Shown in pieces: positions 3,386 through 35,963 of a DNA stretch of 39,715 nt. The stretch lies in IMG/VR virus record IMGVR_UViG_2541047728_000019. One strand, written 5' to 3'. Source of the stretch: a virus (Duplodnaviria > Heunggongvirae > Uroviricota > Caudoviricetes). The position numbers and the translations under genes are program-made. Position 1 is the stretch's first letter. Every line of letters starts with the position of its first letter. The notes beneath the pieces were generated by a model. That model worked only from the letters and a program-made list of their open reading frames with translations, was not told the origin of the DNA and made no database searches.

Positions 3386-6300
3386 TTAACGTTCTTCCAG
3401 AGACTGAATCCGCTCTTTTATCTTATCCATTTCTCTGCGCTGCCATGCTGCCTCGATATAGAATAAGAGATCAGGTCTGACCCCCCATCTAGATCCTGCT
3501 GGCGTTATTTCAACGCGCTCAATGATGTCTTCCATTACCATCACTGGATTATCATCCTCATCAACAATGATGCTCCCGTCATTATCAGTCAGCGGCATTT
3601 CCCTTTGGCCAGTAATGACGTCATCATATACTGCGGGATAATCGTCATAGCAAAGAAAGGCATAGCGGCATGTTGTGCTTTCTTCTTCCATGAGTCCGTG
3701 AGAAATAAGAACATCACGAAGTTGCTGCGCGATTACACCATGATGTATCCTCGCCCCTTCTTCCCCCTTTATAGCGACAGCGTTCAGCCATTTATAAGCG
3801 ATATACCTGACGTCACCCCAGGCATCCAGCAATGCTTCGTCAGGAGAGACCGGCTCTGTCTTTAATGTTCCGTCACTGGTAACCACAGGATTGGAGCCAA
3901 GATAAACTGTCGAGAACCTGTTTCCCGGACCACCAAGAGCATTTACATTATCAAGATAAGGTTTAACATCTCCGTTCTCAAAAAGATGTTCGAGTGCGTT
4001 ATATACCGCGCGACGTGGAGTACTGCTTCTGGAACCATGCAACGTTATCATTGCACCATCTGCTGAAGACGTTGTTTCACCGCCGCTAACGATTAATCTC
4101 TGAGCGGTAACATCATCAGACGGTACTTTCTTCGCAATAATGGCGTAATTACCCTCAAGTTTGACTTCCGCGCGAACTTGTCCTGATGTACCTGCATGGA
4201 CAGTCAGTGACTGGACGGCAACATCATCTGTGAAATCAACGGGTACAGGAACCGTCCTCACGCCTGACGTCGACATAAAAGTAGGAAGCGTTCTGTTAGG
4301 AGTGGCTCCGTAGACAAAATCCCTTGAAACAAATTCTTCCTGTTTAATTTTCACCCTGAAACAATACAAATCAGCCGGGTGACCATCGTGAACATAAGGA
4401 TATTTTCTGTTGTTATCCCCTATGCTCCATGGGTTTAGAAAGTCTTCCCCACCGAAAATGTAGTACAGCCAGTTGTCTTTGATACAAACTGAACCAACAC
4501 CAACCGCAGAGTTAACTATTCCGCCCTGATAAATCTGATCAGTAACATTAACCCACTCTACATTATCCAGACTCCACTCATTGACGTTAACTCTGGTCAT
4601 AAATGTTCTTGGATAATTTCCTGCATAACGGTTATCAGGTTCTCCTCCTTCCCACTCACCAAATGCGCGCTCACTGCCAAAAATAATCAGCTCATCGCCA
4701 ACTTTGGCAAAAGGAAGGTTTGAGTGATGAACATTATTTGGGAAGCGAAGAGAATTCCATGATGTACCTAAATCAGAGCTTCTGTGCAATGAACTACCGG
4801 GTTGAGTACTTAATGTCCCCCTGGTCGTCAGATACAGAATGCCATCATAATATTTTACACATGGCTCAGATGCATTCGCCTCATATTCTACAGGTATGCG
4901 TCTGCGAACAAAGCTACCAGGAGAACCGAAAGCATCAGAGAAATAGAGTATCCCAAGCTCGCGTGGACCAATATCACCATTATGGTAGCCAACAGCAAAA
5001 CTGTTATCGCTAATCGTCGCAAAACTGTGAATCTCAGTAACAGGAGTGCTTCCGTCAACAAAAGAAGGAATAGTTCCAAGACTGGTTTTTCTCCATGGTG
5101 ACGAGTGAAATGATGTGCCAAAACTCCAGTATCTACCCTCGTTATTCTGATCCACATCCTGGGTATTTTTCGTCGTAACTGTAAAGGTATTTTTATCAAT
5201 AACAGTAGTCACCGTCATATTCCCGGTAACACCTGTAACACCAGAGTTTGAGAAGTTGACAAAATCACCAGCAAATAATCCGTGATCAGTAATGCGAATA
5301 TAAGCGACTTGCTGATTTGCTGCTTTCGTTATACCACCATAAACGCGAAGGCTGCGACTCATTGGGCGATCCCACAACTCTGCAACCTGCAGTTTATTTC
5401 CGCTCACGGTCCGCGTCTCAATTACAGCAAAAAGGCGATTTCTGACAACCCCCATACTCATGCAGTGATAGTTAACTGTGGGATAGTTTTCATGTAAATC
5501 TGTAAGCCATTCCGGCGTTGTCCAGGTCTTCCCGTCATCTCCTGAGCGAACCCATGCAACATGGAGGTTATTTACACCATGGCGGTCTCCAGCCATAAAA
5601 GGCGCATAGATGACATTGTCATATACAAACGTTTTATCCTGCGTCCAGGCGTTGTACCACGGTGTATCTGTAATTTTAAATAACTCTCCCTGGATAAAAT
5701 CTTCAGAAGCATAAAAAAGAGGTTGGCCCGGTATTCTCTCAAATAAAAAACGAGCATTTTTAAATCGACTGACATCCGGAAGAGTTGATACTTTAAAAGT
5801 AAGCCCTAATCCGTCAATTTTATAACCTGGAGATGAGGCTTCAAGGCACGCGCTTATTGCAGTGGAATCGTCATTTATACCATCACCAACAGCTCCAAAA
5901 TCTTTGGGGCTAATAGCATCACGCATTTTATCCTGGAACGTTCGGTACACAGCCCCAGAACCATACTGAATAAACCAACCAAAACCACCAACAACCCCGG
6001 AGATTGCAGCATCGACATAATTACGCATTGAGCGATTATTTACAGCGTCCTGCTCAAATGATGGATCTGCAAGGTTAGAAATTTTGTTTTGCTTTGCATC
6101 GTAATATTTTGCAAGCAAAGATGGTTTCATCAATGCACGTCTGAACCACCCAAAACATTGCTGGATCAGCATCGTCAGATAGTCAAAGGCATCTTCATGC
6201 ACCTCGGGGAAAAATTTTCCCTGATTACGAAGATCAGTCTCCTGCACCACATCAAGCACACGATCTATCGTAATTCGCCATCCAGCAGCAAGCGGCGACG

Positions 6301-6505
6301 GAAGAACAACAGAACCGCCACTATAAGTGCCCGCCCCAGTTACCGTATAACCGGTATCCAGTACTAGTTCTGTTACGTTACCGTTAAGGTCAGACACCTG
6401 AACAACCAGGTCGGATTTTTTGAAAATACGGAAGGTATACGGAAATGATGTCGTAACGCCGTTACCAGTGTATTCGTTGTGGTCAACTTCGGTTGAGACC
6501 GTCAT
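3386..6505 (-). CDS. Tailspike: N-terminal particle-binding domain, central beta-helix-type depolymerase region, C-terminal intramolecular chaperone (peptidase S74-like) domain
   Basis: 1039 aa; DFGAVGDGINDDSTAI motif typical of pectate-lyase-like beta-helix enzymes; C-terminal DEALLDAWG...YKWLNAVAIKGEEGARIHHGVIAQQ matches self-cleaving chaperone domains; GGAGA SD. Confidence 0.85.
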   Translation of the reverse strand: MTVSTEVDHNEYTGNGVTTSFPYTFRIFKKSDLVVQVSDLNGNVTELVLDTGYTVTGAGTYSGGSVVLPSPLAAGWRITIDRVLDVVQETDLRNQGKFFPEVHEDAFDYLTMLIQQCFGWFRRALMKPSLLAKYYDAKQNKISNLADPSFEQDAVNNRSMRNYVDAAISGVVGGFGWFIQYGSGAVYRTFQDKMRDAISPKDFGAVGDGINDDSTAISACLEASSPGYKIDGLGLTFKVSTLPDVSRFKNARFLFERIPGQPLFYASEDFIQGELFKITDTPWYNAWTQDKTFVYDNVIYAPFMAGDRHGVNNLHVAWVRSGDDGKTWTTPEWLTDLHENYPTVNYHCMSMGVVRNRLFAVIETRTVSGNKLQVAELWDRPMSRSLRVYGGITKAANQQVAYIRITDHGLFAGDFVNFSNSGVTGVTGNMTVTTVIDKNTFTVTTKNTQDVDQNNEGRYWSFGTSFHSSPWRKTSLGTIPSFVDGSTPVTEIHSFATISDNSFAVGYHNGDIGPRELGILYFSDAFGSPGSFVRRRIPVEYEANASEPCVKYYDGILYLTTRGTLSTQPGSSLHRSSDLGTSWNSLRFPNNVHHSNLPFAKVGDELIIFGSERAFGEWEGGEPDNRYAGNYPRTFMTRVNVNEWSLDNVEWVNVTDQIYQGGIVNSAVGVGSVCIKDNWLYYIFGGEDFLNPWSIGDNNRKYPYVHDGHPADLYCFRVKIKQEEFVSRDFVYGATPNRTLPTFMSTSGVRTVPVPVDFTDDVAVQSLTVHAGTSGQVRAEVKLEGNYAIIAKKVPSDDVTAQRLIVSGGETTSSADGAMITLHGSRSSTPRRAVYNALEHLFENGDVKPYLDNVNALGGPGNRFSTVYLGSNPVVTSDGTLKTEPVSPDEALLDAWGDVRYIAYKWLNAVAIKGEEGARIHHGVIAQQLRDVLISHGLMEEESTTCRYAFLCYDDYPAVYDDVITGQREMPLTDNDGSIIVDEDDNPVMVMEDIIERVEITPAGSRWGVRPDLLFYIEAAWQRREMDKIKERIQSLEER

Positions 6506-6567
6506 GTTAAATCTCCAGATAGTCGCAGCACCCGTTGCGCCGCATATCTGGTTATTCTATTACCTGA

Positions 6568-6581
6568 AAAACCACATATGG
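6568..6581 (-). promoter_or_regulatory. Recurrent motif CATATGTGGTT (minus strand) about 65 bp upstream of tailspike ATG
   Basis: Same 11-mer family at 26754-26764 and 32827-32837, each 40-55 bp from a TTACC-N5-GGTAA palindrome. Confidence 0.3.
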
Positions 6582-6609
6582 ATAGAAAGACTGTGAATAC
6601 GAATAGATA

Positions 6610-6624
6610 TTACCTTTCGGGTAA
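6610..6624. promoter_or_regulatory. Operator-like palindrome TTACC-TTTCG-GGTAA
   Basis: Perfect 5+5 dyad; member of a 12-site family in this window. Confidence 0.55.
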
Positions 6625-6661
6625 TTTGCAAAACGTGCTGGATAGCAAACAAATTATTTGA

Positions 6662-6681
6662 TACTGTATAAATATACAGTT
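6662..6681 (+). promoter_or_regulatory. LexA (SOS) box TACTGTATAAATATACAGTT
   Basis: CTGT-N8-ACAG with AT-rich spacer, matches LexA consensus taCTGT(AT)4ACAGta; centred about 30 bp upstream of ATG 6701. Confidence 0.6.
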
Positions 6682-6700
6682 ATTGCATGGAGAAGATAAG

Positions 6701-6958
6701 ATGCAGCAGTATCACTATCCACTGGAAGACGGATTTACCGAAAGGATTCACACGCCGGGAGGCGTCAGGTCACTGGTGGAGGGATCGCACTTGATGAAAT
6801 TACTCCGGGATCTCGATAAGGATGGATTTAATGTCGATGGCCCACTTGCCGAACTGACTGCACTGATTAACTACGTCACCAGCTCACAGATGTCTATGCA
6901 GGATCTGCAAACACATCTCGACTATTGTGCCGAACAATTACGAAAACAAACCCGGTAA
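6701..6958 (+). CDS. Small antirepressor-like protein: stand-alone copy of the Ant C-terminal module
   Basis: 85 aa; clear similarity (IHTPGGV..LMKLL..DG.NV.G..AELT...Y...DLQTH.DY) to the C-termini of both Ant proteins; GGAG SD 8 nt upstream; LexA box in promoter. Confidence 0.55.
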   Translation: MQQYHYPLEDGFTERIHTPGGVRSLVEGSHLMKLLRDLDKDGFNVDGPLAELTALINYVTSSQMSMQDLQTHLDYCAEQLRKQTR

Positions 6959-6964
6959 ATTTAA

Positions 6965-6982
6965 AGGCCGCAAGAGCGGCCT
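6965..6982. terminator. Bidirectional terminator hairpin aggccgc-aaga-gcggcct
   Basis: 7-bp GC stem between convergent genes; near-identical hairpin at 9612-9629. Confidence 0.5.
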
Positions 6983-7709
6983 ATCGTTTCGCTTTGTGCT
7001 CGTCCCAGCACGTTTTGCACCATGCCATTAAGCCGTCCGCATTTTGATTATTAGGGTAAAAGCTGGTCCGTTTTCTGCGGACATTACAAATTGGGCACCA
7101 CTTCATATGGCGTGTATTCTTTGGGCCATCGAGACACCTTGCACACCACTTAGTCAATCCATCTGGATTTTTTGACGATTTCCGGAATTTGTCATATGGA
7201 AGGTTTATTCTGCATCGCAAACACTGCTTGCGGCCACTTGAAACTCTGTTAGCTGATTCTTCTTTTGGCGGCGATACAGAAGGTATTCTTGCTGGCTCTG
7301 ATACTGCCTGAGGTGCTTTTTTAGATGACTGAGACGATATGTCATCACCAGGGAATCTTCCATGATATGCCGGACGCGTTGACACTCCAGGTGGAAGCTC
7401 AGCTGTAAACGGCTTTGGCTGAATCAGTTGCCTCTCTTTTGCTAACTCCTGCTGTTTATAATATGTCTGGATTACCGCGCTATCATAAGCAGGAGGTACG
7501 GAAATATTAGGCGCATTATCTCCCGTTTTTTGAAACTGAGTGGAGGTGTGTTCTATCACCTGTGTACGATTAATCGTTATCTCCCCATCTTCAGTCTTTA
7601 TCGTTTTGTTATGATTAACGACCGTACGATCAGAGATCTTAGTCTTGTTCTGGTTGATAACGTAAATAATCACCGCAACCACACCAACAACTACCCAGAA
7701 AACTTCCAT
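6981..7709 (-). CDS. Membrane-anchored protein with two tandem CxxC-x22-CxxC zinc-ribbon repeats
   Basis: N-terminal TM helix, Pro/Ser-rich linker, repeats CLRC...DGLTKWCARC and CPIC...DGLMAWCKTC; strong GAGGAAAGG SD; operator palindrome about 20 bp upstream. Confidence 0.6.
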   Translation of the reverse strand: MEVFWVVVGVVAVIIYVINQNKTKISDRTVVNHNKTIKTEDGEITINRTQVIEHTSTQFQKTGDNAPNISVPPAYDSAVIQTYYKQQELAKERQLIQPKPFTAELPPGVSTRPAYHGRFPGDDISSQSSKKAPQAVSEPARIPSVSPPKEESANRVSSGRKQCLRCRINLPYDKFRKSSKNPDGLTKWCARCLDGPKNTRHMKWCPICNVRRKRTSFYPNNQNADGLMAWCKTCWDEHKAKR

Positions 7710-7837: not shown

Positions 7838-8104
7838 ATTTACATCGCACTCCTCTTGTGCCATAGTAATCGGGCACTGGCAAAATCCAGTGCCGGGATT
7901 GGTCTCCCGGATTACTACAGAGGCACATATGCCGCATAAGCGGTTTTTTTATGTGTAAAGCGCACCTATTCTATGGTGGGCTGTGTGGGGGCACCGAAAG
8001 GTGCGCCGGGTTCCTTTGTAGCCGGTAAGACCAACTCTGCACAGTTCACCACCATCTGATTGGTCTCAGCGGTGGTGATTAACCTAACTACAAAGGTGAT
8101 CGCC

Positions 8105-8797
8105 ATGAATACCAAACCTTCCATCTTTTCCTTTGAGTCATCCTGCCAGATCCGTATGTTCATGATTGACGGAGAACCTTGGTTTGTCACCAAAGATGTG
8201 TGCAATGCTTTGAATATTGATGTTACACAAGCGAGAAAACTTGATAAAAAAGGCTGGAACAAAAAGGGGCTGTATTCAATACAGACCCCTGGTGGAATAC
8301 AAGAACTATCCATCGTTTCAGAATCAGGTCTCTACATCCTTATTCTGCGTTGCAAAGAGGCAATGACTGAGGGAACGAGAGCATTCAGATTTCTTGAATG
8401 GGTTACAGGTGAGGTTCTTCCTCAGATCCGCCGCACCGGAAGTTACATTAAAAACTCGCTCCCGCAGGAAGAACGCATAAAGATGGTTGCCGACCAGGTA
8501 GCCAACGCCACAGCATCAGCAGTGATGCAGGCAATGAAGATAGAGAACAAAACCTACAGTGCCCCACTGAAGCCCGGCTACCGCAGCCTGATTCATTCTC
8601 CGTCTGGTGTTCTCGGCCTGACGGAGCACTCACTGCTGATGAATCTGTTGAACCAGTTACAGGAAGACGGGCACGACGTATCGGGCGCGGCGGCGGAGCT
8701 GACCACCATGTTCTGCTACATCGTCGGTGTGAGCAAATGCCTGCGTGATATCCAGACTCACGCGGAGTACATCAACGACAAGGCAGGGTTCTTCTGA
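8105..8797 (+). CDS. Antirepressor, Bro-N/KilA-N N-terminal domain plus shared Ant C-terminal module
   Basis: Bro-N signature (FVTKDVCNAL...SESGLYILILR...FLEWVTGEVLPQIRRTGSY); start MNTKPS at 8105; C-terminal 77 aa near-identical to the other Ant. Confidence 0.8.
   Translation: MNTKPSIFSFESSCQIRMFMIDGEPWFVTKDVCNALNIDVTQARKLDKKGWNKKGLYSIQTPGGIQELSIVSESGLYILILRCKEAMTEGTRAFRFLEWVTGEVLPQIRRTGSYIKNSLPQEERIKMVADQVANATASAVMQAMKIENKTYSAPLKPGYRSLIHSPSGVLGLTEHSLLMNLLNQLQEDGHDVSGAAAELTTMFCYIVGVSKCLRDIQTHAEYINDKAGFF
8564..8797 (+). repeat. Left arm of a 234-bp inverted repeat (about 95 percent identical to 9689-9922)
   Basis: Codon-by-codon comparison by eye: 11 differences, 10 synonymous; encodes the shared Ant C-terminal module. 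Confidence 0.8.
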
Positions 8798-9012: not shown

Positions 9013-9552
9013 GTGTTAAGTGAAGAAATGCAATTTGCCATGGCTGTGGCTCAAATCGTAAGTGCAGTCGCGGTTTCGCTTGGCTTGTTCATAGCTATCG
9101 CTACTATTATTTATAATGTAAATACAGCGAGAAAAGTACACACTTCAGTATTCCTTGGTGAAAGCAGGTTTGATGTAGATTATAAGAAAGGCCTATCTAC
9201 TATGCGCCGCATTCACGAGTCGAACAAATCATTCCGCTCTTATATGTATCCAAGCAATGGGCAGGCTGATCTTACGGATGAAGAAAAGATAGAGAAGAGA
9301 GAAATAATTTACTGTCTAGGTTTCTACGAACGCATGGCTGTGAGCGTGAAGCGGAAAACTTATGATGAGACCATGATTAAGGAAGTATTTTACAGCTCCG
9401 TTGTAAATAACTATCAGATTGCGCTACCTCTTATACAAGCTATTAGAGAAAAAGAAAACATAAACACATATTTTAAAGAATATGAATGGTTGGCCACACG
9501 ATGGAAGGATTGTCCATTGAAGGATAAATCCCCGTGGTACAAGTTTTGGTAA
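9013..9552 (+). CDS. Membrane-anchored protein, unknown function (candidate superinfection-exclusion or abortive-infection factor)
   Basis: GTG start with GGAG SD; N-terminal TM helix then about 150-aa soluble domain; AT-rich relative to neighbours. Confidence 0.6.
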   Translation: MLSEEMQFAMAVAQIVSAVAVSLGLFIAIATIIYNVNTARKVHTSVFLGESRFDVDYKKGLSTMRRIHESNKSFRSYMYPSNGQADLTDEEKIEKREIIYCLGFYERMAVSVKRKTYDETMIKEVFYSSVVNNYQIALPLIQAIREKENINTYFKEYEWLATRWKDCPLKDKSPWYKFW

Positions 9553-9688: not shown

Positions 9689-9922
9689 TCAGAAGAACCC
9701 TGCCTTGTCGTTGATGTATTCCGCGTGCGTCTGGATATCACGCAGGCATTTGCTCACACCAACGATGTAGCAGAACATGGTGGTCAGCTCCGCCGCCGCG
9801 CCCGATACATCGTGCCCGTCTTCCTGTAACTGGTTCAGCAGATTCATCAGCAGTGAGTTCTCCGTCAGGCCGAGAACACCCGACGGCGAATGAATCAGAC
9901 TGCGGTAGCCTGGCTTCAATGG
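9689..9922 (-). repeat. Right arm of the 234-bp inverted repeat
   Basis: Reverse complement aligns to 8564-8797 with about 95 percent identity. Confidence 0.8.
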
Positions 9923-10627
9923 ATAACCATAACATTTTGTCTGTGTTTTAATTGCCTCACGAAGCGCATCTAACATCTTGACTGCCACTTCATCATTCTC
10001 TGATGCAGATCCAGCAGGGAGATACTCCCCTTCAAGCGGAACCCGAGCAACAAGAGACAACGCTTCGGCAAATTGATCTTCACCAATTTCTTTGTACGAA
10101 CAGCCAAAATGAGATTTCAGTGACGACCACATGGTGATCATCGCCTTAGCCTGTTTTTCTTTTGGCAGAGACTGACCGCGACTCATGACGAGTTGTTTAA
10201 TGGCTTCCTGCTGTTCAGTTGTTATTTTACCCGGCAACGCCTTTTTAGCTTTGCGTGGGTTAACCACATGGCCTTTAGTCCAGTACTCGTAGAGCACATC
10301 GTCACACTCTTCCTGATACTGGATTACCTTGTCGCGGATTTCAGGGCGGACTTTGTTAGGGCTGATGCTGTTCAACCAAGCTGCCAATTTTCGTAAAGCC
10401 ATACAAATCATGGCTTGCACCCCACCGGCAGAAGGTATGGTGATTTCCACCATACCCTTCGAGAAGCGTTGAGAAATCTTCTTATGTTGAGATTTCCAGT
10501 CTAGCCCCATTCCCTCAACGATAGGTTTCATTGGGGTATACGGTTCGCCGTTGTGATTGACAACATAAAGCTCTGCGCCGTGGAATGGCACGTTGATAGT
10601 AGATACTGCTGTTGCTATACTCGTCAT
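9689..10627 (-). CDS. ant: Antirepressor, AntA-type N-terminal domain plus shared Ant C-terminal module
   Basis: N-terminal PFHGAELYVVNHNGEPYTPMKPIVEGMGLDW resembles AntA; downstream of Arc-like gene as in P22 immI. Confidence 0.8.
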   Translation of the reverse strand: MTSIATAVSTINVPFHGAELYVVNHNGEPYTPMKPIVEGMGLDWKSQHKKISQRFSKGMVEITIPSAGGVQAMICMALRKLAAWLNSISPNKVRPEIRDKVIQYQEECDDVLYEYWTKGHVVNPRKAKKALPGKITTEQQEAIKQLVMSRGQSLPKEKQAKAMITMWSSLKSHFGCSYKEIGEDQFAEALSLVARVPLEGEYLPAGSASENDEVAVKMLDALREAIKTQTKCYGYPLKPGYRSLIHSPSGVLGLTENSLLMNLLNQLQEDGHDVSGAAAELTTMFCYIVGVSKCLRDIQTHAEYINDKAGFF

Positions 10628-10676
10628 GTCGTTAATTCCTATACGTAGTTTTACGATACTGAAGCCCTGACGGTCT

Positions 10677-10690
10677 GGCCACCGTGGGGC
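10677..10690. promoter_or_regulatory. GC-rich dyad GGCCACCGTGGGGC between arc-like and ant
   Basis: Near-palindrome; second copy at 10882-10896. Confidence 0.35.
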
Positions 10691-10699
10691 TTCGCTGTT

Positions 10700-10867
10700 T
10701 TATGCCACGCTATTCTTCTCACCAGTGAGTCCATACACTTTCCTCAGCTGATAGATAATCTCTGTATTGAACTTTCGGCATTCTTTTTCGCCATTTCTTT
10801 CAATAGCTAACTTCACATCGTCCGGAAAACGAACTCGTCGTTGACACATCTCTTTTGCTTTTTGCAT
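10700..10867 (-). CDS. arc: Arc-like ribbon-helix-helix repressor
   Basis: 55 aa; RVRFPDDVKLAIERNGEKECRKFNTEIIYQLRKVYG parallels P22 Arc; AGGAGA SD before ATG 10867. Confidence 0.7.
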   Translation of the reverse strand: MQKAKEMCQRRVRFPDDVKLAIERNGEKECRKFNTEIIYQLRKVYGLTGEKNSVA

Positions 10868-10881
10868 TTCATATCTCCTTA

Positions 10882-10896
10882 GCCCCACCGTGGGGC
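10882..10896. promoter_or_regulatory. GC-rich dyad GCCCCACCGTGGGGC in the arc/mnt divergent control region
   Basis: Near-perfect palindrome overlapping arc 5' region; further dyads (CACCGTG...CACGGTG) nearby. Confidence 0.4.
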
Positions 10897-10987
10897 AAAA
10901 TAATTGTCACACCGTGCGTCATTGATGTCAAGCACACGGTGAGGCATACTTCAATCATTGCAAGTAACTCAATATTTGGTGAAGAAC

Positions 10988-11419
10988 ATGAGCAGAGAAG
11001 ATCCACAACTAAGGATCAGACTTCCCGTCGAAGTAAAAGAAAAAATAGAAATTTCTGCAAAAGCCAATAAGCGATCAATGAACGCTGAAATAGTACAACG
11101 TCTTGACACCAGCTTTCTGAAAGATATTCATGAAGATGACGTAATTTCTGCTTATGAAGCAAAAATCATTGCAAACAATGCACGACATGAAATATCAAAT
11201 ATTATTTTCAAAAGAACCTTTAATGAAATTAATAAGAAAATAACACTTGGACATACAAGTTTTTATATAAACCTTAATGACCTTGAACTGGAATCACTTG
11301 CAGATAATGATTACCAGATCATCTTTGAAAAAACATTTAATAAGCTCAATGAACTAGGTTACATCATCTGTGAAAACTCATGGGATGCAGATGGTTTTGG
11401 AATTGAAATACCTGAATAG
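10988..11419 (+). CDS. mnt: Mnt-like ribbon-helix-helix repressor with about 95-aa C-terminal extension
   Basis: MSREDPQLRIRLPVEVKEKIEISAKANKRSMNAEIVQRL closely parallels the P22 Mnt N-terminus; divergent from arc-ant; very AT-rich. Confidence 0.7.
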   Translation: MSREDPQLRIRLPVEVKEKIEISAKANKRSMNAEIVQRLDTSFLKDIHEDDVISAYEAKIIANNARHEISNIIFKRTFNEINKKITLGHTSFYINLNDLELESLADNDYQIIFEKTFNKLNELGYIICENSWDADGFGIEIPE

Positions 11420-11482
11420 GAAGAACAAAAGGCGTGTACATATTACACGTCTTTAATACAATTGAAAAACGCCACATTACTG

Positions 11483-12073
11483 ATGTATGTTACAACAAGG
11501 AGCGATATTTTGAAAACCATATCTATATTAAAGGTTGCATTAGGCGTCGCTATTATTTTGACTCTCTCAATATTGTTTTATTTTTACCACAAACAAACTG
11601 CTATTGCTCTTGATAGTCACGCGGCAAACTCATTTTTCTCAGAGTACATAGTGCCGCTATCAGGAAGCGGTATAACAAATAAATATACTGACTATGACAT
11701 CAAATATGGAATTGATGATGGGGAGACTATTGTATTACATGTAATCATTAAAAACCTAATGACAGTAAATAAAAATACAGACTTCAACGATAAAAATACA
11801 ATACATCACAACAACAGCAAAACATTAATTTCTTATAGTAGCAACATCTATACGGATAAATACCTAAAATACATATCAGAAGATACAATAAAAGAAACCC
11901 GCGAAAAGTTAAAAAACATATATTGTGCATCCGGCAGTTTTCACAAATTATCGCCGCAAGAGCGTTTATTCTACGAAGCAAGAAAACAACGTAAGTCAAT
12001 AATATTACATTATTATGCTGATTCAGGGGAGACACTCATATTTAATATTGGGGTTTCCCCTGAATCATGCTAA
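11483..12073 (+). CDS. Membrane-anchored protein, unknown function, at the sieA-equivalent position
   Basis: N-terminal TM helix, Asn/Lys/Tyr-rich soluble domain, very AT-rich; start uncertain (ATG 11483 or TTG 11510 preceded by AAGGAG). Confidence 0.55.
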   Translation: MYVTTRSDILKTISILKVALGVAIILTLSILFYFYHKQTAIALDSHAANSFFSEYIVPLSGSGITNKYTDYDIKYGIDDGETIVLHVIIKNLMTVNKNTDFNDKNTIHHNNSKTLISYSSNIYTDKYLKYISEDTIKETREKLKNIYCASGSFHKLSPQERLFYEARKQRKSIILHYYADSGETLIFNIGVSPESC

Positions 12074-18855: not shown

Positions 18856-21326
18856 CAGAATCCCCCAACAGTAAGGCGAGGAATAACGGCAAGAACAGAC
18901 AGCGGCAACGGGTCAAGCTGACGGATTTTTACACGTCCGTTTTTGCCCCAGTTACTGTCCAGTTTCACTTCTACTTTTCCGGTAGCATCATCAACAGGAT
19001 CATCGTAGAACTCGAATTCACGCTGTGGATATTCGTACCATTTACCGCCAGGCGTAGTCGCCCAGATGCCGCGGCTGGCATTCACAACCAGAGTAACGGA
19101 GGGGATCACCTGTTTTTTGTCCAGCAGCGTTTCCTGTCCGTTAATGTTGATATCCAGTGTTTCGAATTCAGCAGTTATTGGCAGGCCGATGTGCACTACA
19201 GCCCCCGGAGATTCCAGTGTGACGGCACCTCCGGAAACAACTTTCTGTGGCTCAACATTCGCATCAGAAAGAATGTTTACGGTCTGTCCTTCAAGATGAG
19301 ACAGGCCTCCAAATGTCCGGCGCGCCATCTGCCAGTTCGTGGTGGCCGTATTCCTGAGGGATGGCGGGACGTTCCTGTTGGCACGAACCACTACAGCGGT
19401 ATTGCTGGTTACAGAAATAATGTCGCAACGTAATTCTTTTGACACTTCATCGCCAGTATCAGGATCAGTTCCGGTATAAGGGAACTGTAGTTGCGCACCG
19501 ACATCACTACTGGTGAAGTACGCACCACCAGAAACACTGATTGTATATTCCGCGCGGTAATCCCATTCGCCAGAACCACCAGTGATTGTCATCGTTCTGT
19601 CAGACGTATTTCTTCCATCATAGCTAAGGCCAGAATCAACAAAGAAAGCATCTTCATCGCTGGTAAATAAACGGCTGGACAGTCGCTCGATGTATCTCAC
19701 TGTTTGCCCGTTAACGGTTCGGTTAATGACGAAATACACCGCATCTTCATTGCCTTCGCTGATACTGCATGTGCTTTCATATTTTCCGGTACTGGACTGT
19801 GGTGCCCATGCAAAAACCTGTTGATCACGCAAATAGGTCATCACCAGTAATTTACCGTCATCACGAATGCAGAAGGCGCTGGAGTAAGGGACAATAGAGA
19901 AGCACCAGTCAACAATGCTGTGCTTCTGAAAAAGATGATTGGCAAGGATAGTAAGGTCGTTCCCCTGATAGCCGTCAACATCGAATGAGTAGGCCAGATC
20001 ACGGACAACACTGCCTTTCTCCTGGACGAACAGAGCAATATTCGCCACGGCAATTGGTGGGACATTGCTCGAGCCATTTGATCCCTGAGAGCTGAATGCA
20101 AATGATGATGGGGTTAACACTTTGTTCTGGTCGCCGGTGATGACGTACTCACCTCCGGAAGTCAGTGCCACCAGCGAACCGACATCAATCAGGTGGCGGA
20201 TCTCATTAACCTGACGCCCGGCATAGGTGTAGATAATTCTGTCGTCATCCTGCGTAGGATTGCTTTTGCCAAAATCCTTATAATCCCCGGTACGGCTGGC
20301 CCAGATAGTCTGAGGGAACGCAGTCGATGCGGCGAAGTAAAGACGTTGTTGATAATAAACAACAGTGCCAGGATAACCATTAACACTGTTCCAGGCATAT
20401 TTAGCCCATTTATAGCTGGCATTATCCTCGCCAACTACCTGCGAAGGGATATAGGAAATCACCTCGGCAGTTGCAGTAGTTCCATTTGCAGCAGTGATAC
20501 GGGCAATGCCAAAACCACTGTGCAGATATTCCCACTCAATGCCAGTATCATCATCACCGGATCCGCCCCAGCCATCCCATGATGTGCCTTCTGTATGCGA
20601 AGGGCGCAAAGTACCTGTTTTGCCTGCTGTAACGGCGCGATAGTAGTTACTGTCTGCACGGCGAATATCGCCAATCGACGTACTCTTACTGGTTTCCCAT
20701 ACCGGCACTGAATCCACTGCAGGCTGTTCCAGATAGAACAATTTGCCTACCTGCTCCGCGCCAAAAATAGAGGCGCTTGCCGTTAACGTAATTGTCCCGG
20801 TGCTGGCGCTGGCATAAACCGTCACTGACTCGTCAATATTGATATCTTCAAATGGCCCGTTCTTCGTTACCACATCAACCAGTTGCCAGTTGTCATGCGC
20901 ATAGCGACGCAACTCTTTCGGCGGGTATGCCGGATGAACCAGCGTAAGCACGTCGGCGCTTTGCGTGAATTTAATTCGGAACAGATCGGCTTCAGTATAT
21001 GGCGTGGCAATTTCATAAATAACATTGCTGCTGTTCAGCACCAACGCACCATCTTTGATAACGCGCATGTACTGGTGTCCGAACTCCAGAGCATAAGTCT
21101 GAACCGTCGAGAACTGGAACGGGATCAGGCGGCATTTCCGATTTGGGTATTTGGCGGCACCGACAAAACGCGTACCAGGTCGATTCTCAACGCCGCCATA
21201 CTGCCGCACGATAAAGTTATCGCACTTGCGCAATGCCACCTGGTACTTCGCCATGTCGATACGACCGTACAACGACGGTCCAATCTCACCACCGGCAAAG
21301 CTGGGCTGGATCCAACTGATAGCCAT
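18855..21326 (-). CDS. Tail tubular protein B-like (nozzle)
   Basis: 823 aa immediately after tubular-A-like gene, as in T7. Confidence 0.7.
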   Translation of the reverse strand: MAISWIQPSFAGGEIGPSLYGRIDMAKYQVALRKCDNFIVRQYGGVENRPGTRFVGAAKYPNRKCRLIPFQFSTVQTYALEFGHQYMRVIKDGALVLNSSNVIYEIATPYTEADLFRIKFTQSADVLTLVHPAYPPKELRRYAHDNWQLVDVVTKNGPFEDINIDESVTVYASASTGTITLTASASIFGAEQVGKLFYLEQPAVDSVPVWETSKSTSIGDIRRADSNYYRAVTAGKTGTLRPSHTEGTSWDGWGGSGDDDTGIEWEYLHSGFGIARITAANGTTATAEVISYIPSQVVGEDNASYKWAKYAWNSVNGYPGTVVYYQQRLYFAASTAFPQTIWASRTGDYKDFGKSNPTQDDDRIIYTYAGRQVNEIRHLIDVGSLVALTSGGEYVITGDQNKVLTPSSFAFSSQGSNGSSNVPPIAVANIALFVQEKGSVVRDLAYSFDVDGYQGNDLTILANHLFQKHSIVDWCFSIVPYSSAFCIRDDGKLLVMTYLRDQQVFAWAPQSSTGKYESTCSISEGNEDAVYFVINRTVNGQTVRYIERLSSRLFTSDEDAFFVDSGLSYDGRNTSDRTMTITGGSGEWDYRAEYTISVSGGAYFTSSDVGAQLQFPYTGTDPDTGDEVSKELRCDIISVTSNTAVVVRANRNVPPSLRNTATTNWQMARRTFGGLSHLEGQTVNILSDANVEPQKVVSGGAVTLESPGAVVHIGLPITAEFETLDININGQETLLDKKQVIPSVTLVVNASRGIWATTPGGKWYEYPQREFEFYDDPVDDATGKVEVKLDSNWGKNGRVKIRQLDPLPLSVLAVIPRLTVGGF

Positions 21327-27142: not shown

Positions 27143-27219
27143 GTGGCATTAGCTCAGTTGGACAGAGCAACCGCCTTCTAAGCGGTTGGTCGCAGGTTCG
27201 AATCCTGCATGCCACGCCA
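27143..27219 (+). tRNA. tRNA-Arg (anticodon UCU, reads AGA)
   Basis: Cloverleaf folded by hand: acceptor GTGGCAT/ATGCCAC, D-arm GCTC..GAGC, anticodon stem ACCGC/GCGGT with loop CTTCTAA, T-arm GCAGG-TTCGAATC-CCTGC, 3' CCA encoded. Confidence 0.85.
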
Positions 27220-35154: not shown

Positions 35155-35169
35155 TTTACCTGTTGGGTA
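35155..35169. promoter_or_regulatory. Operator-like palindrome TTACC-TGTTG-GGTAA
   Basis: Perfect dyad; third site of OR-like cluster. Confidence 0.55.
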
Positions 35170-35225
35170 ATATTGCTTTAAATTGAATCATCTACTGATT
35201 CATATATGAGGCGATTTTCCAGAAA

Positions 35226-35810
35226 ATGAAAAGTATCCAGGACGTCCGCAGGCAAAATCTCAACGACTTGATCGACCGTGAATTCAATGGTGTTCAGACG
35301 CGGATGGCTGAAAAACTTGGAACTCAGGCAAATCTGGTAAACCGCTGGGCTCTTGGCAAGAAGGTTATCGGCGACCAGGTTGCACGAAAAATTGAAGCTG
35401 CCGCCAATAAACCCCGTAACTGGCTTGATATCGATCGCTCGCTTTCTCAGGAAGGTTTTCAGCCTGTCGGCCCAAGCGACATTGGCCAGCTGGCGGCTCA
35501 CAACCTGGAACGCTGGATGAGCGAAAGCCGCGACCTTTCAACACAGGGAAAACTTCACCGCGCATCCGGCGTAGCCCAGGTGACAATCAGCCGCCTATTA
35601 AACAATGAGGTCAGCGTTTCCATTTCCACCCTGGAGAATGTTGCATCCGCATTCGGGCGTCACGGCTATGAATTACTGATTCACCCGCACGACCCTGCGA
35701 CCATCAACTATGATCGCTCGCGCTACGCATTGTTACCCGAAACCGAGAAAGCAAAGATCGAAAGTTACATTGAATTTGTCATCAACCAGAACGAAAAAAA
35801 CAAACAATAA
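35226..35810 (+). CDS. Repressor-like DNA-binding protein with two HTH-like segments and no S24 peptidase domain
   Basis: 194 aa; HTH-like QTRMAEKLGTQANLVNRWALGKK and a second in the C-half; no Ser/Lys autocleavage motifs seen. Confidence 0.6.
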   Translation: MKSIQDVRRQNLNDLIDREFNGVQTRMAEKLGTQANLVNRWALGKKVIGDQVARKIEAAANKPRNWLDIDRSLSQEGFQPVGPSDIGQLAAHNLERWMSESRDLSTQGKLHRASGVAQVTISRLLNNEVSVSISTLENVASAFGRHGYELLIHPHDPATINYDRSRYALLPETEKAKIESYIEFVINQNEKNKQ

Positions 35811-35855: not shown

Positions 35856-35867
35856 TTGCCTATTCGA

Positions 35868-35882
35868 TTACCTGATGGGTAA
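35868..35882. promoter_or_regulatory. Operator-like palindrome TTACC-TGATG-GGTAA upstream of early promoter
   Basis: Perfect dyad. Confidence 0.55.
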
Positions 35883-35901
35883 TTTTTTTAACTCATATCT
35901 A

Positions 35902-35930
35902 TTGACATCAAACCATATACGCATAATTAT
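35902..35930 (+). promoter_or_regulatory. Candidate sigma70 promoter TTGACA-N17-AATTAT for the rightward early operon
   Basis: Consensus -35, 17-bp spacer, A/T-rich -10, flanked by two operator palindromes. Confidence 0.5.
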
Positions 35931-35944
35931 TACCTCAACGGTAA
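35930..35944. promoter_or_regulatory. Operator-like palindrome TTACC-TCAAC-GGTAA at predicted +1
   Basis: Perfect dyad abutting the -10. Confidence 0.55.
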
Positions 35945-35963
35945 CAGACCGAGGTAACAAGTT

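What the first reader, a model, noticed from the sequence alone, without database searches (positions are those of the whole stretch)
6662..6958. LexA box in front of a stand-alone 85-aa copy of the antirepressor C-terminal module
TACTGTATAAATATACAGTT (CTGT-N8-ACAG) lies about 30 bp upstream of a small gene whose product aligns with the shared C-terminus of both Ant proteins. The putative repressor at 35226..35810 shows no LexA-like autocleavage domain. Together this suggests SOS induction works through a LexA-derepressed small antirepressor, as established for Salmonella Gifsy-type prophages, here with a different protein module.
Basis: partly seen in the sequence, partly recalled or inferred. 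Interest (0 to 1): 0.72.

Follow-up and report, generated by a model that had tools for sequence, protein, structure and literature searches.

The report
LexA-controlled small antirepressor, already characterised

Summary
A near-consensus LexA box, TACTGTATAAATATACAGTT (6662-6681), lies 20 bp upstream of an 85-aa gene (6701-6958). It has 2 mismatches to the 20-bp consensus and is the only strong LexA site in the window. The protein aligns at 42% identity with the C-terminal ~80 residues of both large Ant proteins.

The window is a Uetakevirus (epsilon15/phiV10-like) E. coli phage. The small protein is 88% identical to the Anti-repressor chain of PDB 5D50 (Salmonella phage SPC32H). The 194-aa repressor is a full-length homologue of the Rep chain in that crystal and has no S24 autocleavage domain. 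The gene sits in the same place, divergent from the tailspike. The LexA box is conserved in E. coli, Salmonella and Enterobacter relatives. The lytic variant SPC32N differs from SPC32H by one base inside this box.

Novelty is therefore "already known" (Kim & Ryu 2013; Kim et al. 2016), though most databases still call the gene hypothetical.

The less described part is that the same module also ends two larger Ant proteins. One follows isrK/C4 RNAs, as in P1 and Gifsy-1. The other sits in an arc/mnt/sar cassette, as in P22.

The parts
6662..6681 (.). LexA box (SOS box) TACTGTATAAATATACAGTT
   Evidence: 2 mismatches to the consensus and unique in the window. Weight-matrix score 27.1 bits against 10.2 for the next best site. 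Conserved in phiV10, TL-2011b, SPC32H, epsilon15, Tyrion and BUCT554. SPC32N carries a point mutation in the orthologous box.
6639..6680 (+). Region that must hold the ant promoter (inferred). Candidate hexamers are TGGATA 6639-6644 or TAGCAA 6643-6648 (-35), and TACTGT 6662-6667 or TATAAA 6667-6672 (-10), both -10 candidates lying inside the LexA box.
   Evidence: Inference from spacing and from the conserved block TGCTGGATAG. The consensus scan found no strong sigma-70 match here, so the exact hexamers are not established.
6689..6695 (+). Ribosome-binding site GGAGAAG
   Evidence: Read from the sequence. Conserved as GGAGAAG or GGAGAT in relatives.
6701..6958 (+). ant: 85-aa small antirepressor, orthologue of SPC32H Ant (PDB 5D50 chain E)
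   Evidence: phmmer against PDB: E 4.1e-47 over residues 2-84. tblastn: 88% identity to the annotated ant of SPC32H. phrog_450 match at E 9e-48.
6965..6982 (.). GC-rich hairpin between the convergent ant gene and the 242-aa gene; probable bidirectional terminator
   Evidence: Terminator scan. RNA fold -15.5 kcal/mol, z -2.4.
6609..6625 (.). Perfect copy of the repressor-operator-like palindrome ATTACC-N5-GGTAAT, 54.5 bp (centre to centre) upstream of the LexA box
   Evidence: 14 sites in the window against 1.2 expected. The same site at the same distance is in SPC32H. It is annotated as a repressor binding site in the epsilon15 record. Its role at this position is unknown.
35226..35810 (+). 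rep: 194-aa prophage repressor, homologue of SPC32H Rep (PDB 5D50 chain A, 5D4Z); no autocleavage domain
   Evidence: E 4e-42 over residues 1-190. Pfam finds HTH_3 only. 100% identical to the phiV10 and ZX5 repressors and 41% to SPC32H Rep.
35155..35171 (.). Operator-like palindrome upstream of rep
35867..35945 (.). Two operator-like palindromes (35867-35883 and 35929-35945) downstream of rep, facing the early genes
   Evidence: SPC32H has the equivalent arrangement around its rep gene.
8105..8797 (+). Bro-N antirepressor (230 aa from ATG 8105) whose last ~80 residues (about 8540-8794) are a second copy of the Ant module
   Evidence: Pfam Bro-N. phrog_450 match on residues 147-228 at E 5.7e-37. 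42% identity to the small Ant. 80% identical to ZX5 ORF4, with a near-identical C-terminal half (one difference in the last 131 residues).
9689..10627 (-). P22_AR_N antirepressor (312 aa) whose last ~80 residues (9692-9946) are a third copy of the Ant module
   Evidence: Pfam P22_AR_N at E 5.9e-45. phrog_450 match on residues 230-310 at E 1.6e-35. 42% identity to the small Ant.

Best explanation
The locus is the SOS input of a Uetakevirus (epsilon15/phiV10/SPC32H-type) lysis-lysogeny switch.

In the lysogen, host LexA binds the box at 6662-6681. The box overlaps, or lies directly against, the promoter of ant and keeps it silent. The 194-aa Rep occupies its ATTACC-N5-GGTAAT operators and represses the lytic genes. 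Rep has no RecA-stimulated autocleavage domain, so it cannot sense DNA damage itself.

After DNA damage, activated RecA triggers LexA self-cleavage and ant is transcribed. By analogy with SPC32H, the 85-aa Ant forms a tetramer that binds the C-terminal domains of two Rep dimers and captures their N-terminal DNA-binding domains. This takes the Rep tetramer apart and strips it from the operators without cleaving it, and lytic growth follows.

Shown here: orthology of Ant and Rep to the crystallised pair, the quality, uniqueness and conservation of the LexA box, the absence of an S24 domain, shared synteny and a shared operator motif. Inferred from the SPC32H literature and not tested here: LexA binding, SOS-dependent expression, and Ant-Rep binding for this E. 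coli pair.
For: Ant matches PDB 5D50 chain E 'Anti-repressor protein' at E 4.1e-47 and 88% identity. Rep matches 5D50 chain A and 5D4Z 'Repressor' at E 4e-42 over its full length. Pfam finds only HTH domains in Rep.

The LexA box has 2 mismatches to the consensus, is the only such site in the window, and appeared in 0 of 100 shuffles. Its weight-matrix score is 27.1 bits, higher than every training site. The box is conserved at the same distance from the start codon in E. coli, Salmonella and Enterobacter Uetakeviruses.

The SPC32H and SPC32N genomes differ in this 6.2-kb locus at only two bases. One of them changes ACAG to AAAG in the box and lowers the score from 25.1 to 18.7 bits.

GenBank annotates the orthologues as ant and rep in SPC32H. 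Synteny is the same: ant diverges from the tailspike gene. Ant and Rep homologues occur in essentially the same set of phage records: 35 records with Ant and 37 with Rep, with near-identical host breakdown. The two extra Rep records are Escherichia phage BP9 and a partial match in a Pseudomonas phage. The operator motif is enriched (14 sites against 1.2 expected) and flanks rep in both this window and SPC32H.

Literature: a review states that after LexA self-cleavage an Ant is made that inhibits the repressor, citing Kim & Ryu 2013 (PMC7380047). PMC9437464 lists the same paper among phages that use host LexA. PMC9638917 describes tetrameric Ant binding two Rep dimers. A lysogen of E. coli phage ZX5, whose Ant and Rep are 100% identical to the window's, is induced by mitomycin C (PMC9782041; identities).
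Against: The E. coli Rep is only 41% identical to SPC32H Rep (N-terminal 50%, middle domain 33%, C-terminal 47%), while Ant is 88% identical. Ant-Rep binding for this pair is therefore extrapolated, not shown.

No consensus sigma-70 promoter was detected over the box, so promoter overlap is inferred from position and from my recollection of the SPC32H paper.

The primary papers (PMC3807360, PMC4983836) are not in the held library. Their detailed claims rest on my own knowledge plus secondary citations.

The LexA weight matrix was built from sites recalled from memory.

A Rep operator 54.5 bp upstream of the box suggests extra control that this model does not explain.
Confidence: 0.9

Rival explanations
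1. The small protein is SOS-induced, but its main target is not the resident Rep. It could act in trans on repressors of other co-resident Uetakevirus-type prophages. Alternatively it could form mixed oligomers with the two large Ants that carry the same module and so modulate them.
For: Ant is far more conserved than Rep across E. coli and Salmonella phages (88% against 41%), which fits a broadly acting effector. Three copies of the module exist in one genome. SPC32H Ant is a tetramer (PMC9638917), so shared modules could co-assemble. Trans-acting antirepressors are established for Gifsy prophages (PMC7380047).
Against: SPC32H, epsilon15 and SPN1S carry only the small Ant and no fused copy (places_in_record = 1), and SPC32H Ant was crystallised in complex with its own phage's Rep. 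Ant and Rep co-occur in the same phage records. The module is only 42% identical between the small and fused forms.
Confidence: 0.06
2. The palindrome is not a working LexA operator. ant would then be controlled by Rep through the operator at 6609-6625, or be constitutive at a low level, and induction would proceed by another route such as one of the large Ants.
For: A perfect Rep-type operator sits just upstream. No consensus promoter was found. The Klebsiella relatives have a weakened left arm (ATGT; 18.1 bits). In ZX5, overexpressing the Bro-N Ant is enough to shift the phage towards lysis (PMC9782041).
Against: The box scores above every bona fide E. coli site in the matrix and is unique in 39.7 kb. 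It is conserved across three host genera while the flanking sequence diverges. A single base change in it distinguishes lytic SPC32N from temperate SPC32H.
Confidence: 0.03
3. Rep itself senses the SOS signal by RecA-stimulated autocleavage, as lambda CI does, and the small gene is accessory.
For: None found here beyond the general prevalence of that mechanism.
Against: There is no Peptidase_S24 match; only HTH domains are found. The nearest solved structure is the non-cleaved SPC32H Rep with its tetramerisation and Ant-binding C-terminal domain (PMC9986798).
Confidence: 0.01

Closest known systems
Ant/Rep/LexA switch of Salmonella phage SPC32H (Kim & Ryu 2013, J Virol 87:11775; Kim et al. 2016, PNAS 113:E2480; PDB 5D50, 5D4Z)
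   Same: Same phage genus (Uetakevirus). Ant is 88% identical. Rep is homologous over its full length. The gene position is the same, divergent from the tailspike. The LexA box sits at the same distance from the start codon. The ATTACC-N5-GGTAAT operator motif is shared, including the copy 54.5 bp upstream of the box.
   Different: The host is E. coli. Rep is only 41% identical (it is the phiV10-type immunity). This genome also carries two fused Ant proteins with the same module, which SPC32H lacks. Nothing has been tested experimentally for this particular pair apart from mitomycin C inducibility of the ZX5 lysogen.
Gifsy-1/Gifsy-3/Fels-2 antirepressors and coliphage 186 Tum (LexA-repressed antirepressors)
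   Same: The logic is the same: a non-cleavable repressor is inactivated by a small protein whose gene is repressed by LexA (PMC7380047; PMC3121763 listed).
   Different: The protein family is unrelated. No Pfam or NCBIfam family matched above threshold, and the only PDB match is 5D50. The phages also differ in type, siphovirus and myovirus against podovirus.
P22 immI (mnt-arc-ant with sar antisense RNA) and the P1/P7 immI or Gifsy-1 isrK-anrP cassettes
   Same: The two large Ants in the window sit in these cassette types. P22_AR_N Ant has arc-like and mnt-like genes and an Rfam sar match. Bro-N Ant has Rfam isrK and C4 matches.
   Different: Their C-terminal part is the Uetakevirus Ant module rather than a P22_AR_C or KilAC domain. 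These cassettes have no LexA box. They are not the feature described in the finding.

Membership tests
SPC32H-type small antirepressor system (Ant + Rep + LexA box) | Ant protein homologous to SPC32H Ant (PDB 5D50 chain E), about 86 aa and stand-alone | tested here: met
   E 4.1e-47, residues 2-84 aligned to 3-85, 88% identity.
SPC32H-type small antirepressor system (Ant + Rep + LexA box) | Cognate repressor homologous to SPC32H Rep (N-terminal DNA-binding domain, middle HTH domain, C-terminal tetramerisation and Ant-binding domain) encoded in the same genome | tested here: met
   E 4e-42 over residues 1-190 of 194. Identity 41% overall: N-terminal 50%, middle 33%, C-terminal 47%.
SPC32H-type small antirepressor system (Ant + Rep + LexA box) | Repressor lacks a LexA/CI-type S24 autocleavage domain | tested here: met
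   Pfam matches only HTH_3, HTH_26 and related families. NCBIfam gives nothing above cut-off.
SPC32H-type small antirepressor system (Ant + Rep + LexA box) | High-quality LexA box directly upstream of ant, in the promoter region | tested here: met
   18 of 20 matches to the consensus, unique in the window, 27.1 bits, conserved among relatives. The exact promoter hexamers are not resolved.
SPC32H-type small antirepressor system (Ant + Rep + LexA box) | Genomic position: ant divergent from the tailspike gene in a Uetakevirus genome | tested here: met
   Same arrangement in PAS61, phiV10, SPC32H, epsilon15, Tyrion, BUCT554 and the Klebsiella relatives.
SPC32H-type small antirepressor system (Ant + Rep + LexA box) | LexA actually binds the box, and ant is derepressed by the SOS response | not testable with these tools
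   Indirect support only: the SPC32N point mutation in the box and mitomycin C induction of the ZX5 lysogen, whose Ant and Rep are identical to the window's (PMC9782041).
SPC32H-type small antirepressor system (Ant + Rep + LexA box) | Ant tetramer binds Rep and releases it from DNA | not testable with these tools
   Known for SPC32H (PMC9638917; PDB 5D50). Not tested for the phiV10-type Rep.
Gifsy / 186 Tum antirepressor family | Sequence homology to Tum or the Gifsy antirepressors | tested here: not met
   No Pfam or NCBIfam family matched above threshold. PHROG matches are phrog_450, phrog_15539 and phrog_1760 only. The PDB match is 5D50 only. No direct pairwise comparison with a Tum sequence was run.
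Gifsy / 186 Tum antirepressor family | LexA-repressed gene whose product inactivates a non-cleavable repressor (functional definition) | tested here: met
   Met as far as sequence evidence goes: LexA box plus a repressor without an S24 domain.
Lambda CI / LexA-type autocleaving repressors | C-terminal Peptidase_S24 domain with a Ser-Lys dyad | tested here: not met
   No S24 match in Rep.

The most novel reading that the evidence does not exclude
In E. coli Uetakeviruses of this type, the one Rep-directed module is deployed three times under three independent inputs. The stand-alone Ant responds to LexA and the SOS signal. A Bro-N fusion lies behind isrK/C4 regulatory RNAs. A P22_AR_N fusion sits in an arc/mnt/sar cassette. 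If all three act on the same Rep, the prophage would be a multi-input induction switch, or an anti-immunity arsenal aimed at related resident prophages. In addition, the conserved Rep operator 54.5 bp upstream of the LexA box would give Rep a direct hand in ant or tailspike expression. None of this appears in the papers I could read. The ZX5 study tested only the Bro-N protein and did not mention the small Ant or LexA.
Probability: 0.4. Interest if true: 0.45.

Novelty: already known. Interest (0 to 1): 0.15.

Why it matters
As a discovery it matters little, because the mechanism, the structure of the complex and the LexA control were published for SPC32H, a phage of the same genus.

Its practical value is for annotation. 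The box-plus-gene locus is present in 529 of 5,426 complete E. coli genomes and is labelled 'hypothetical protein' in every row listed. PHROG 450 is marked 'unknown function', and neither Pfam nor NCBIfam has a model. A 2022 study of an E. coli phage with an identical gene overlooked it. Recognising it predicts that these common E. coli prophages, including those in O157, STEC and APEC strains, are SOS-inducible through LexA and Ant rather than through repressor cleavage.

The side observation of one module under three control circuits is a modest but testable question about multi-signal prophage induction.

Tried and rejected
1. I tried to read the primary papers (DOI 10.1073/pnas.1602618113, PMC3807360, PMC4983836) and the epsilon15 genome paper (PMC2698709). 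None is held. Their content is cited from memory plus secondary sources.

2. The consensus promoter scan over 6400-7100 found no sigma-70 match at the ant promoter. I list candidate hexamers only as inference.

3. I considered whether the other two CTGT-N8-ACAG matches (22793, 27335) are LexA sites. I rejected this because their spacers are GC-rich and they score 10.2 bits or less.

4. I considered whether the large Ant genes are also under LexA. I rejected this because no box scores above 10.2 bits anywhere else in the window.

5. I considered autocleavage of Rep and rejected it, as there is no S24 domain.

6. I considered whether the module occurs in phages with other repressor types, which would argue against Rep specificity. 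tblastn with either the small Ant or the fused module found it only in Rep-carrying Uetakevirus-type records (34 with the fused-module query, 35 with the small Ant).

7. I did not run structure prediction or fold search. At 88% identity to a solved chain they would add nothing.

8. An inverted-repeat search of the intergenic region found only one imperfect pair, at 6510-6556 next to the tailspike start, which I did not pursue.

Full report
**What is there**

The window is a complete or nearly complete Uetakevirus genome, that is, an epsilon15/phiV10-like temperate podovirus of E. coli. The 501 bases around the finding match phiV10, TL-2011b, vB_EcoP_PAS61, vB_EcoP_ZX5, phiv142-3 and others at 96-99% identity.

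The sequence TACTGTATAAATATACAGTT lies at 6662-6681. It is followed by GGAGAAG at 6689-6695 and an ATG at 6701 that opens an 85-codon frame ending at 6958. A GC-rich hairpin at 6965-6982 separates this gene from a convergent 242-aa gene. On the other side the 1039-aa tailspike gene (3386..6505, minus strand) diverges from it.

**Is the LexA box more than chance?**

The site has 18 of 20 matches to the E. coli consensus TACTGTATATATATACAGTA. It is the only site in 39.7 kb within three mismatches of that consensus, and none of 100 dinucleotide-preserving shuffles gave one.

The looser pattern CTGT-N8-ACAG occurs three times, against 0.5 expected. The other two copies have GC-rich spacers.

A palindromised weight matrix, built from twenty E. 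coli SOS boxes that I recalled from the literature, scores the site at 27.1 bits. I flag the matrix as coming from memory. That score is above all twenty training sites (12.4-26.5 bits). The next best site in the window scores 10.2, and the best site in any of 200 shuffled windows scored 18.8.

So there is exactly one strong LexA site in this phage, and it sits 19 nt in front of this gene.

**Conservation**

I aligned the tailspike-ant intergenic region of ten relatives. TAC-TGT-N8-ACAGT is kept in the E. coli phages (phiV10, TL-2011b), the Salmonella phages (SPC32H, epsilon15) and the Enterobacter phages (Tyrion, BUCT554), while much of the surrounding spacer diverges. Their boxes score 22-27 bits.

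The Klebsiella relatives carry ATATGTATATATATACAGTA, with a degenerate left arm, scoring 18.1 bits.

**What the gene is**

phmmer against all PDB chains returns a single match: 5D50 chain E, 'Anti-repressor protein', 86 aa, E 4.1e-47, aligned over residues 2-84. tblastn shows 88% identity to the gene annotated ant in Salmonella phages SPC32H and SPC32N (KC911856/7) and 84% to epsilon15 gp19. The SPC32H record places ant in the same position, between the tailspike and the virion genes and divergent from the tailspike.

The putative repressor at 35226..35810 matches 5D50 chain A and 5D4Z chain A, 'Repressor', at E 4e-42 over residues 1-190. Pfam finds only HTH families and no Peptidase_S24.

So the window carries both partners of a crystallised repressor-antirepressor complex.

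**The published mechanism**

The primary papers are Kim & Ryu 2013 (J Virol 87:11775, PMC3807360) and Kim et al. 2016 (PNAS 113:E2480, PMC4983836). Neither is in the held library.

From my own knowledge of them: SPC32H Rep is not cleaved during the SOS response. It is inactivated by the small Ant, whose expression is repressed by host LexA at a site overlapping the ant promoter. SPC32N, which differs from SPC32H by two nucleotides, carries a point mutation in that LexA site and makes Ant constitutively. In the crystal, tetrameric Ant binds the C-terminal domains of two Rep dimers and captures the N-terminal DNA-binding domains.

I could corroborate these points in three ways.

- The deposited SPC32H and SPC32N sequences differ in the 6.2-kb locus at exactly two positions. 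One is in the tailspike gene. The other changes ACAG to AAAG in the right arm of the box, lowering the score from 25.1 to 18.7 bits.
- Secondary literature supports the LexA link. A review states that upon LexA self-cleavage an Ant is made that inhibits the repressor, citing Kim & Ryu 2013 (PMC7380047). Another paper lists the same work among phages that exploit host LexA (PMC9437464).
- Two further papers describe the tetrameric Ant binding two Rep dimers and the Ant-binding tetramerisation domain of Rep (PMC9638917; PMC9986798).

**How far does the analogy carry to this E. coli phage?**

Ant is 88% identical to the SPC32H protein, but Rep is only 41% identical. By region, Rep identity is 50% in the N-terminal 75 residues, 33% in the middle HTH domain and 47% in the C-terminal 34 residues. 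The window's Rep is 100% identical to the repressors of phiV10, ZX5, PAS61 and phiv142-3.

Three observations argue that the system is intact.

- In the phage collection the Ant family (35 records) and the Rep family (37 records) occur in essentially the same records, with the same host breakdown. The two extra Rep records are Escherichia phage BP9 and a partial match in a Pseudomonas phage.
- The operator-like palindrome ATTACC-N5-GGTAAT, annotated as a repressor binding site in the epsilon15 record, occurs 14 times in the window against 1.2 expected. It flanks rep both here and in SPC32H, so DNA recognition is conserved despite the divergence.
- A lysogen of ZX5, whose Ant and Rep are both 100% identical to the window's, is reported to be induced by mitomycin C to 10^9 PFU/mL (PMC9782041).

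LexA binding, SOS-dependent transcription and Ant-Rep binding for this pair remain inferred.

**The 'copy of the Ant C-terminus' part of the finding**

The small Ant shares 42% identity with the last ~80 residues of the Bro-N protein at 8105..8797 (E 2e-15) and of the P22_AR_N protein at 9689..10627 (E 3e-16). The PHROG profile of the small Ant (phrog_450) matches both C-termini at E 1e-35 to 1e-37. An eight-sequence alignment of stand-alone and fused forms has 21 invariant positions spread along the whole module.

The direction of the relationship is better reversed. Nearly all of the 136 homologues in the large protein database are 85-86 aa stand-alone proteins from Escherichia, Salmonella, Citrobacter, Klebsiella, Enterobacter and relatives. 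The fused forms are the minority.

tblastn with the fused module finds it only in the same Rep-carrying Uetakevirus-type records (34 records). That fits the idea that the module is the Rep-directed part and that the N-terminal domains are exchangeable.

There is some experimental support for the fused form. ZX5 ORF4 is 80% identical overall to the window's Bro-N Ant and near-identical over the C-terminal half, with one difference in the last 131 residues. When overexpressed it lowered the prophage titre about a thousand-fold (PMC9782041). That paper does not mention the small Ant or LexA.

**Surroundings**

The two large Ants have their own control cassettes.

- Rfam gathering-threshold matches place an isrK RNA (7874-7950) and a C4 antisense RNA (7969-8056) directly upstream of the Bro-N Ant. 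This is the arrangement of the Gifsy-1 isrK-orf45-anrP locus, where IsrK controls translation of an anti-repressor (PMC4825925). From my own knowledge it is also the arrangement of P1/P7 immI.
- A sar RNA match (10629-10696) lies between an arc-like gene (10700..10867, minus strand) and the P22_AR_N Ant. A divergent mnt-like ribbon-helix-helix gene lies at 10988..11419. This is a P22 immI-type cassette.

The same RNAs are found in ZX5 and TL-2011b but not in the SPC32H locus.

A perfect Rep-type operator at 6609-6625 sits 54.5 bp, centre to centre, upstream of the LexA box. The same site at the same distance is present in SPC32H. It is nearly invariant in the alignment. Its role, whether in repressing the tailspike promoter, in a second lock on ant, or as a looping partner, is unexplained.

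**Rival explanations**

- A non-functional palindrome is very unlikely, given the score, the uniqueness, the conservation and the SPC32N mutation.
- Repressor autocleavage is excluded as far as sequence can tell.
- The idea that the small Ant mainly acts on other prophages or on the large Ants cannot be ruled out. It is disfavoured because SPC32H, epsilon15 and SPN1S have only the small Ant, and SPC32H Ant was crystallised in complex with its own phage's Rep (PDB 5D50).

**Verdict**

The finding is an orthologue of a published and structurally solved system in the same phage genus, so it is already known.

What remains of interest is practical. The gene is annotated as hypothetical in every listed match among the 529 of 5,426 complete E. 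coli genomes that carry it. PHROGs lists its family as of unknown function, and Pfam and NCBIfam have no model.

There is also one modest open question. The same Rep-directed module is wired to three different control circuits in one phage, and a conserved Rep operator sits next to the LexA box.

Noticed in passing
window 7874-8056 (+), upstream of 8105..8797: Rfam gathering-level matches to isrK (7874-7950, 74.7 bits) and C4 antisense RNA (7969-8056, 78.6 bits) lie directly upstream of the Bro-N antirepressor gene. This is the layout of the Gifsy-1 isrK-orf45-anrP locus and of P1/P7 immI. The same pair is present in ZX5 and TL-2011b.
   Followed up: partly
window 9689-11419: A P22 immI-like cassette. 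It comprises the P22_AR_N Ant (9689..10627, minus strand), an Rfam sar RNA match (10629-10696, 44.8 bits, just above the 43-bit threshold), an arc-like gene (10700..10867, minus strand) and a divergent mnt-like ribbon-helix-helix gene (10988..11419). The C-terminal part of this Ant is the Uetakevirus Ant module.
   Followed up: partly
window 6609-6625; also 7729, 7822, 8868, 26805, 29950, 29968, 32806, 35155, 35867, 35929: The palindrome ATTACC-N5-GGTAAT occurs 14 times at up to 2 mismatches, against 1.2 expected. The copies are mostly intergenic. They flank rep, and several lie in the island that holds the large Ant genes. One perfect copy lies 54.5 bp upstream of the LexA box at a distance conserved in SPC32H, so Rep may also act on the ant or tailspike promoters.
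   Followed up: partly
L005, L008, L009 (Klebsiella Uetakevirus relatives), about 40 bp upstream of the ant orthologue: In the Klebsiella phages the left arm of the box is ATGT instead of CTGT (18.1 bits against 22-27 in the other relatives). This suggests weaker LexA control or drift. Their small Ant also shares the DGHDVSGAAAEL stretch with the fused modules.
   Followed up: no
window 6554-6582, minus strand: A conserved block ATTCTATTACC...AAACC.TATATG.AT lies in the tailspike-ant spacer. On the minus strand it reads GGTAATAGAAT, a good -10 hexamer (TAGAAT) overlapped by an operator half-site. It may be a Rep-controlled tailspike promoter (read from the sequence).
   Followed up: no
L001 5079-5459 (PAS61) and database proteins P0003, P0012, P0020, P0031-P0035: Some records call the ant orthologue as a 126-127 aa protein from an upstream start that reads through the LexA box. 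This is probably a start-codon misannotation.
   Followed up: no
E. coli complete genomes; PHROG 450; Pfam; NCBIfam: The box-plus-ant locus is present in 529 of 5,426 complete E. coli genomes and is labelled 'hypothetical protein' in every row listed. phrog_450 is marked 'unknown function', and no Pfam or NCBIfam model covers the module despite the solved structure.
   Followed up: yes
L002 (phiV10) record positions 19554-19795: In phiV10 and the O157 typing phages 9 and 10, the fused Ant module matches in two pieces across two annotated CDSs. This suggests a frameshifted or decayed Bro-N Ant.
   Followed up: no
window 6981..7709 (-), 9013..9552 (+), 11462..12073 (+): Cargo genes lie between the Ant cassettes. 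One is a 242-aa protein with a weak Stc1 match and endonuclease-VII/Lar-like zinc-finger matches at its C-terminus (phrog_6762). One is a DUF4760 protein. One is a phrog_8033 protein of unknown function.
   Followed up: no
window 27143-27216 (+): An Rfam tRNA match (73.3 bits) lies inside the phage genome. I did not determine the anticodon.
   Followed up: no
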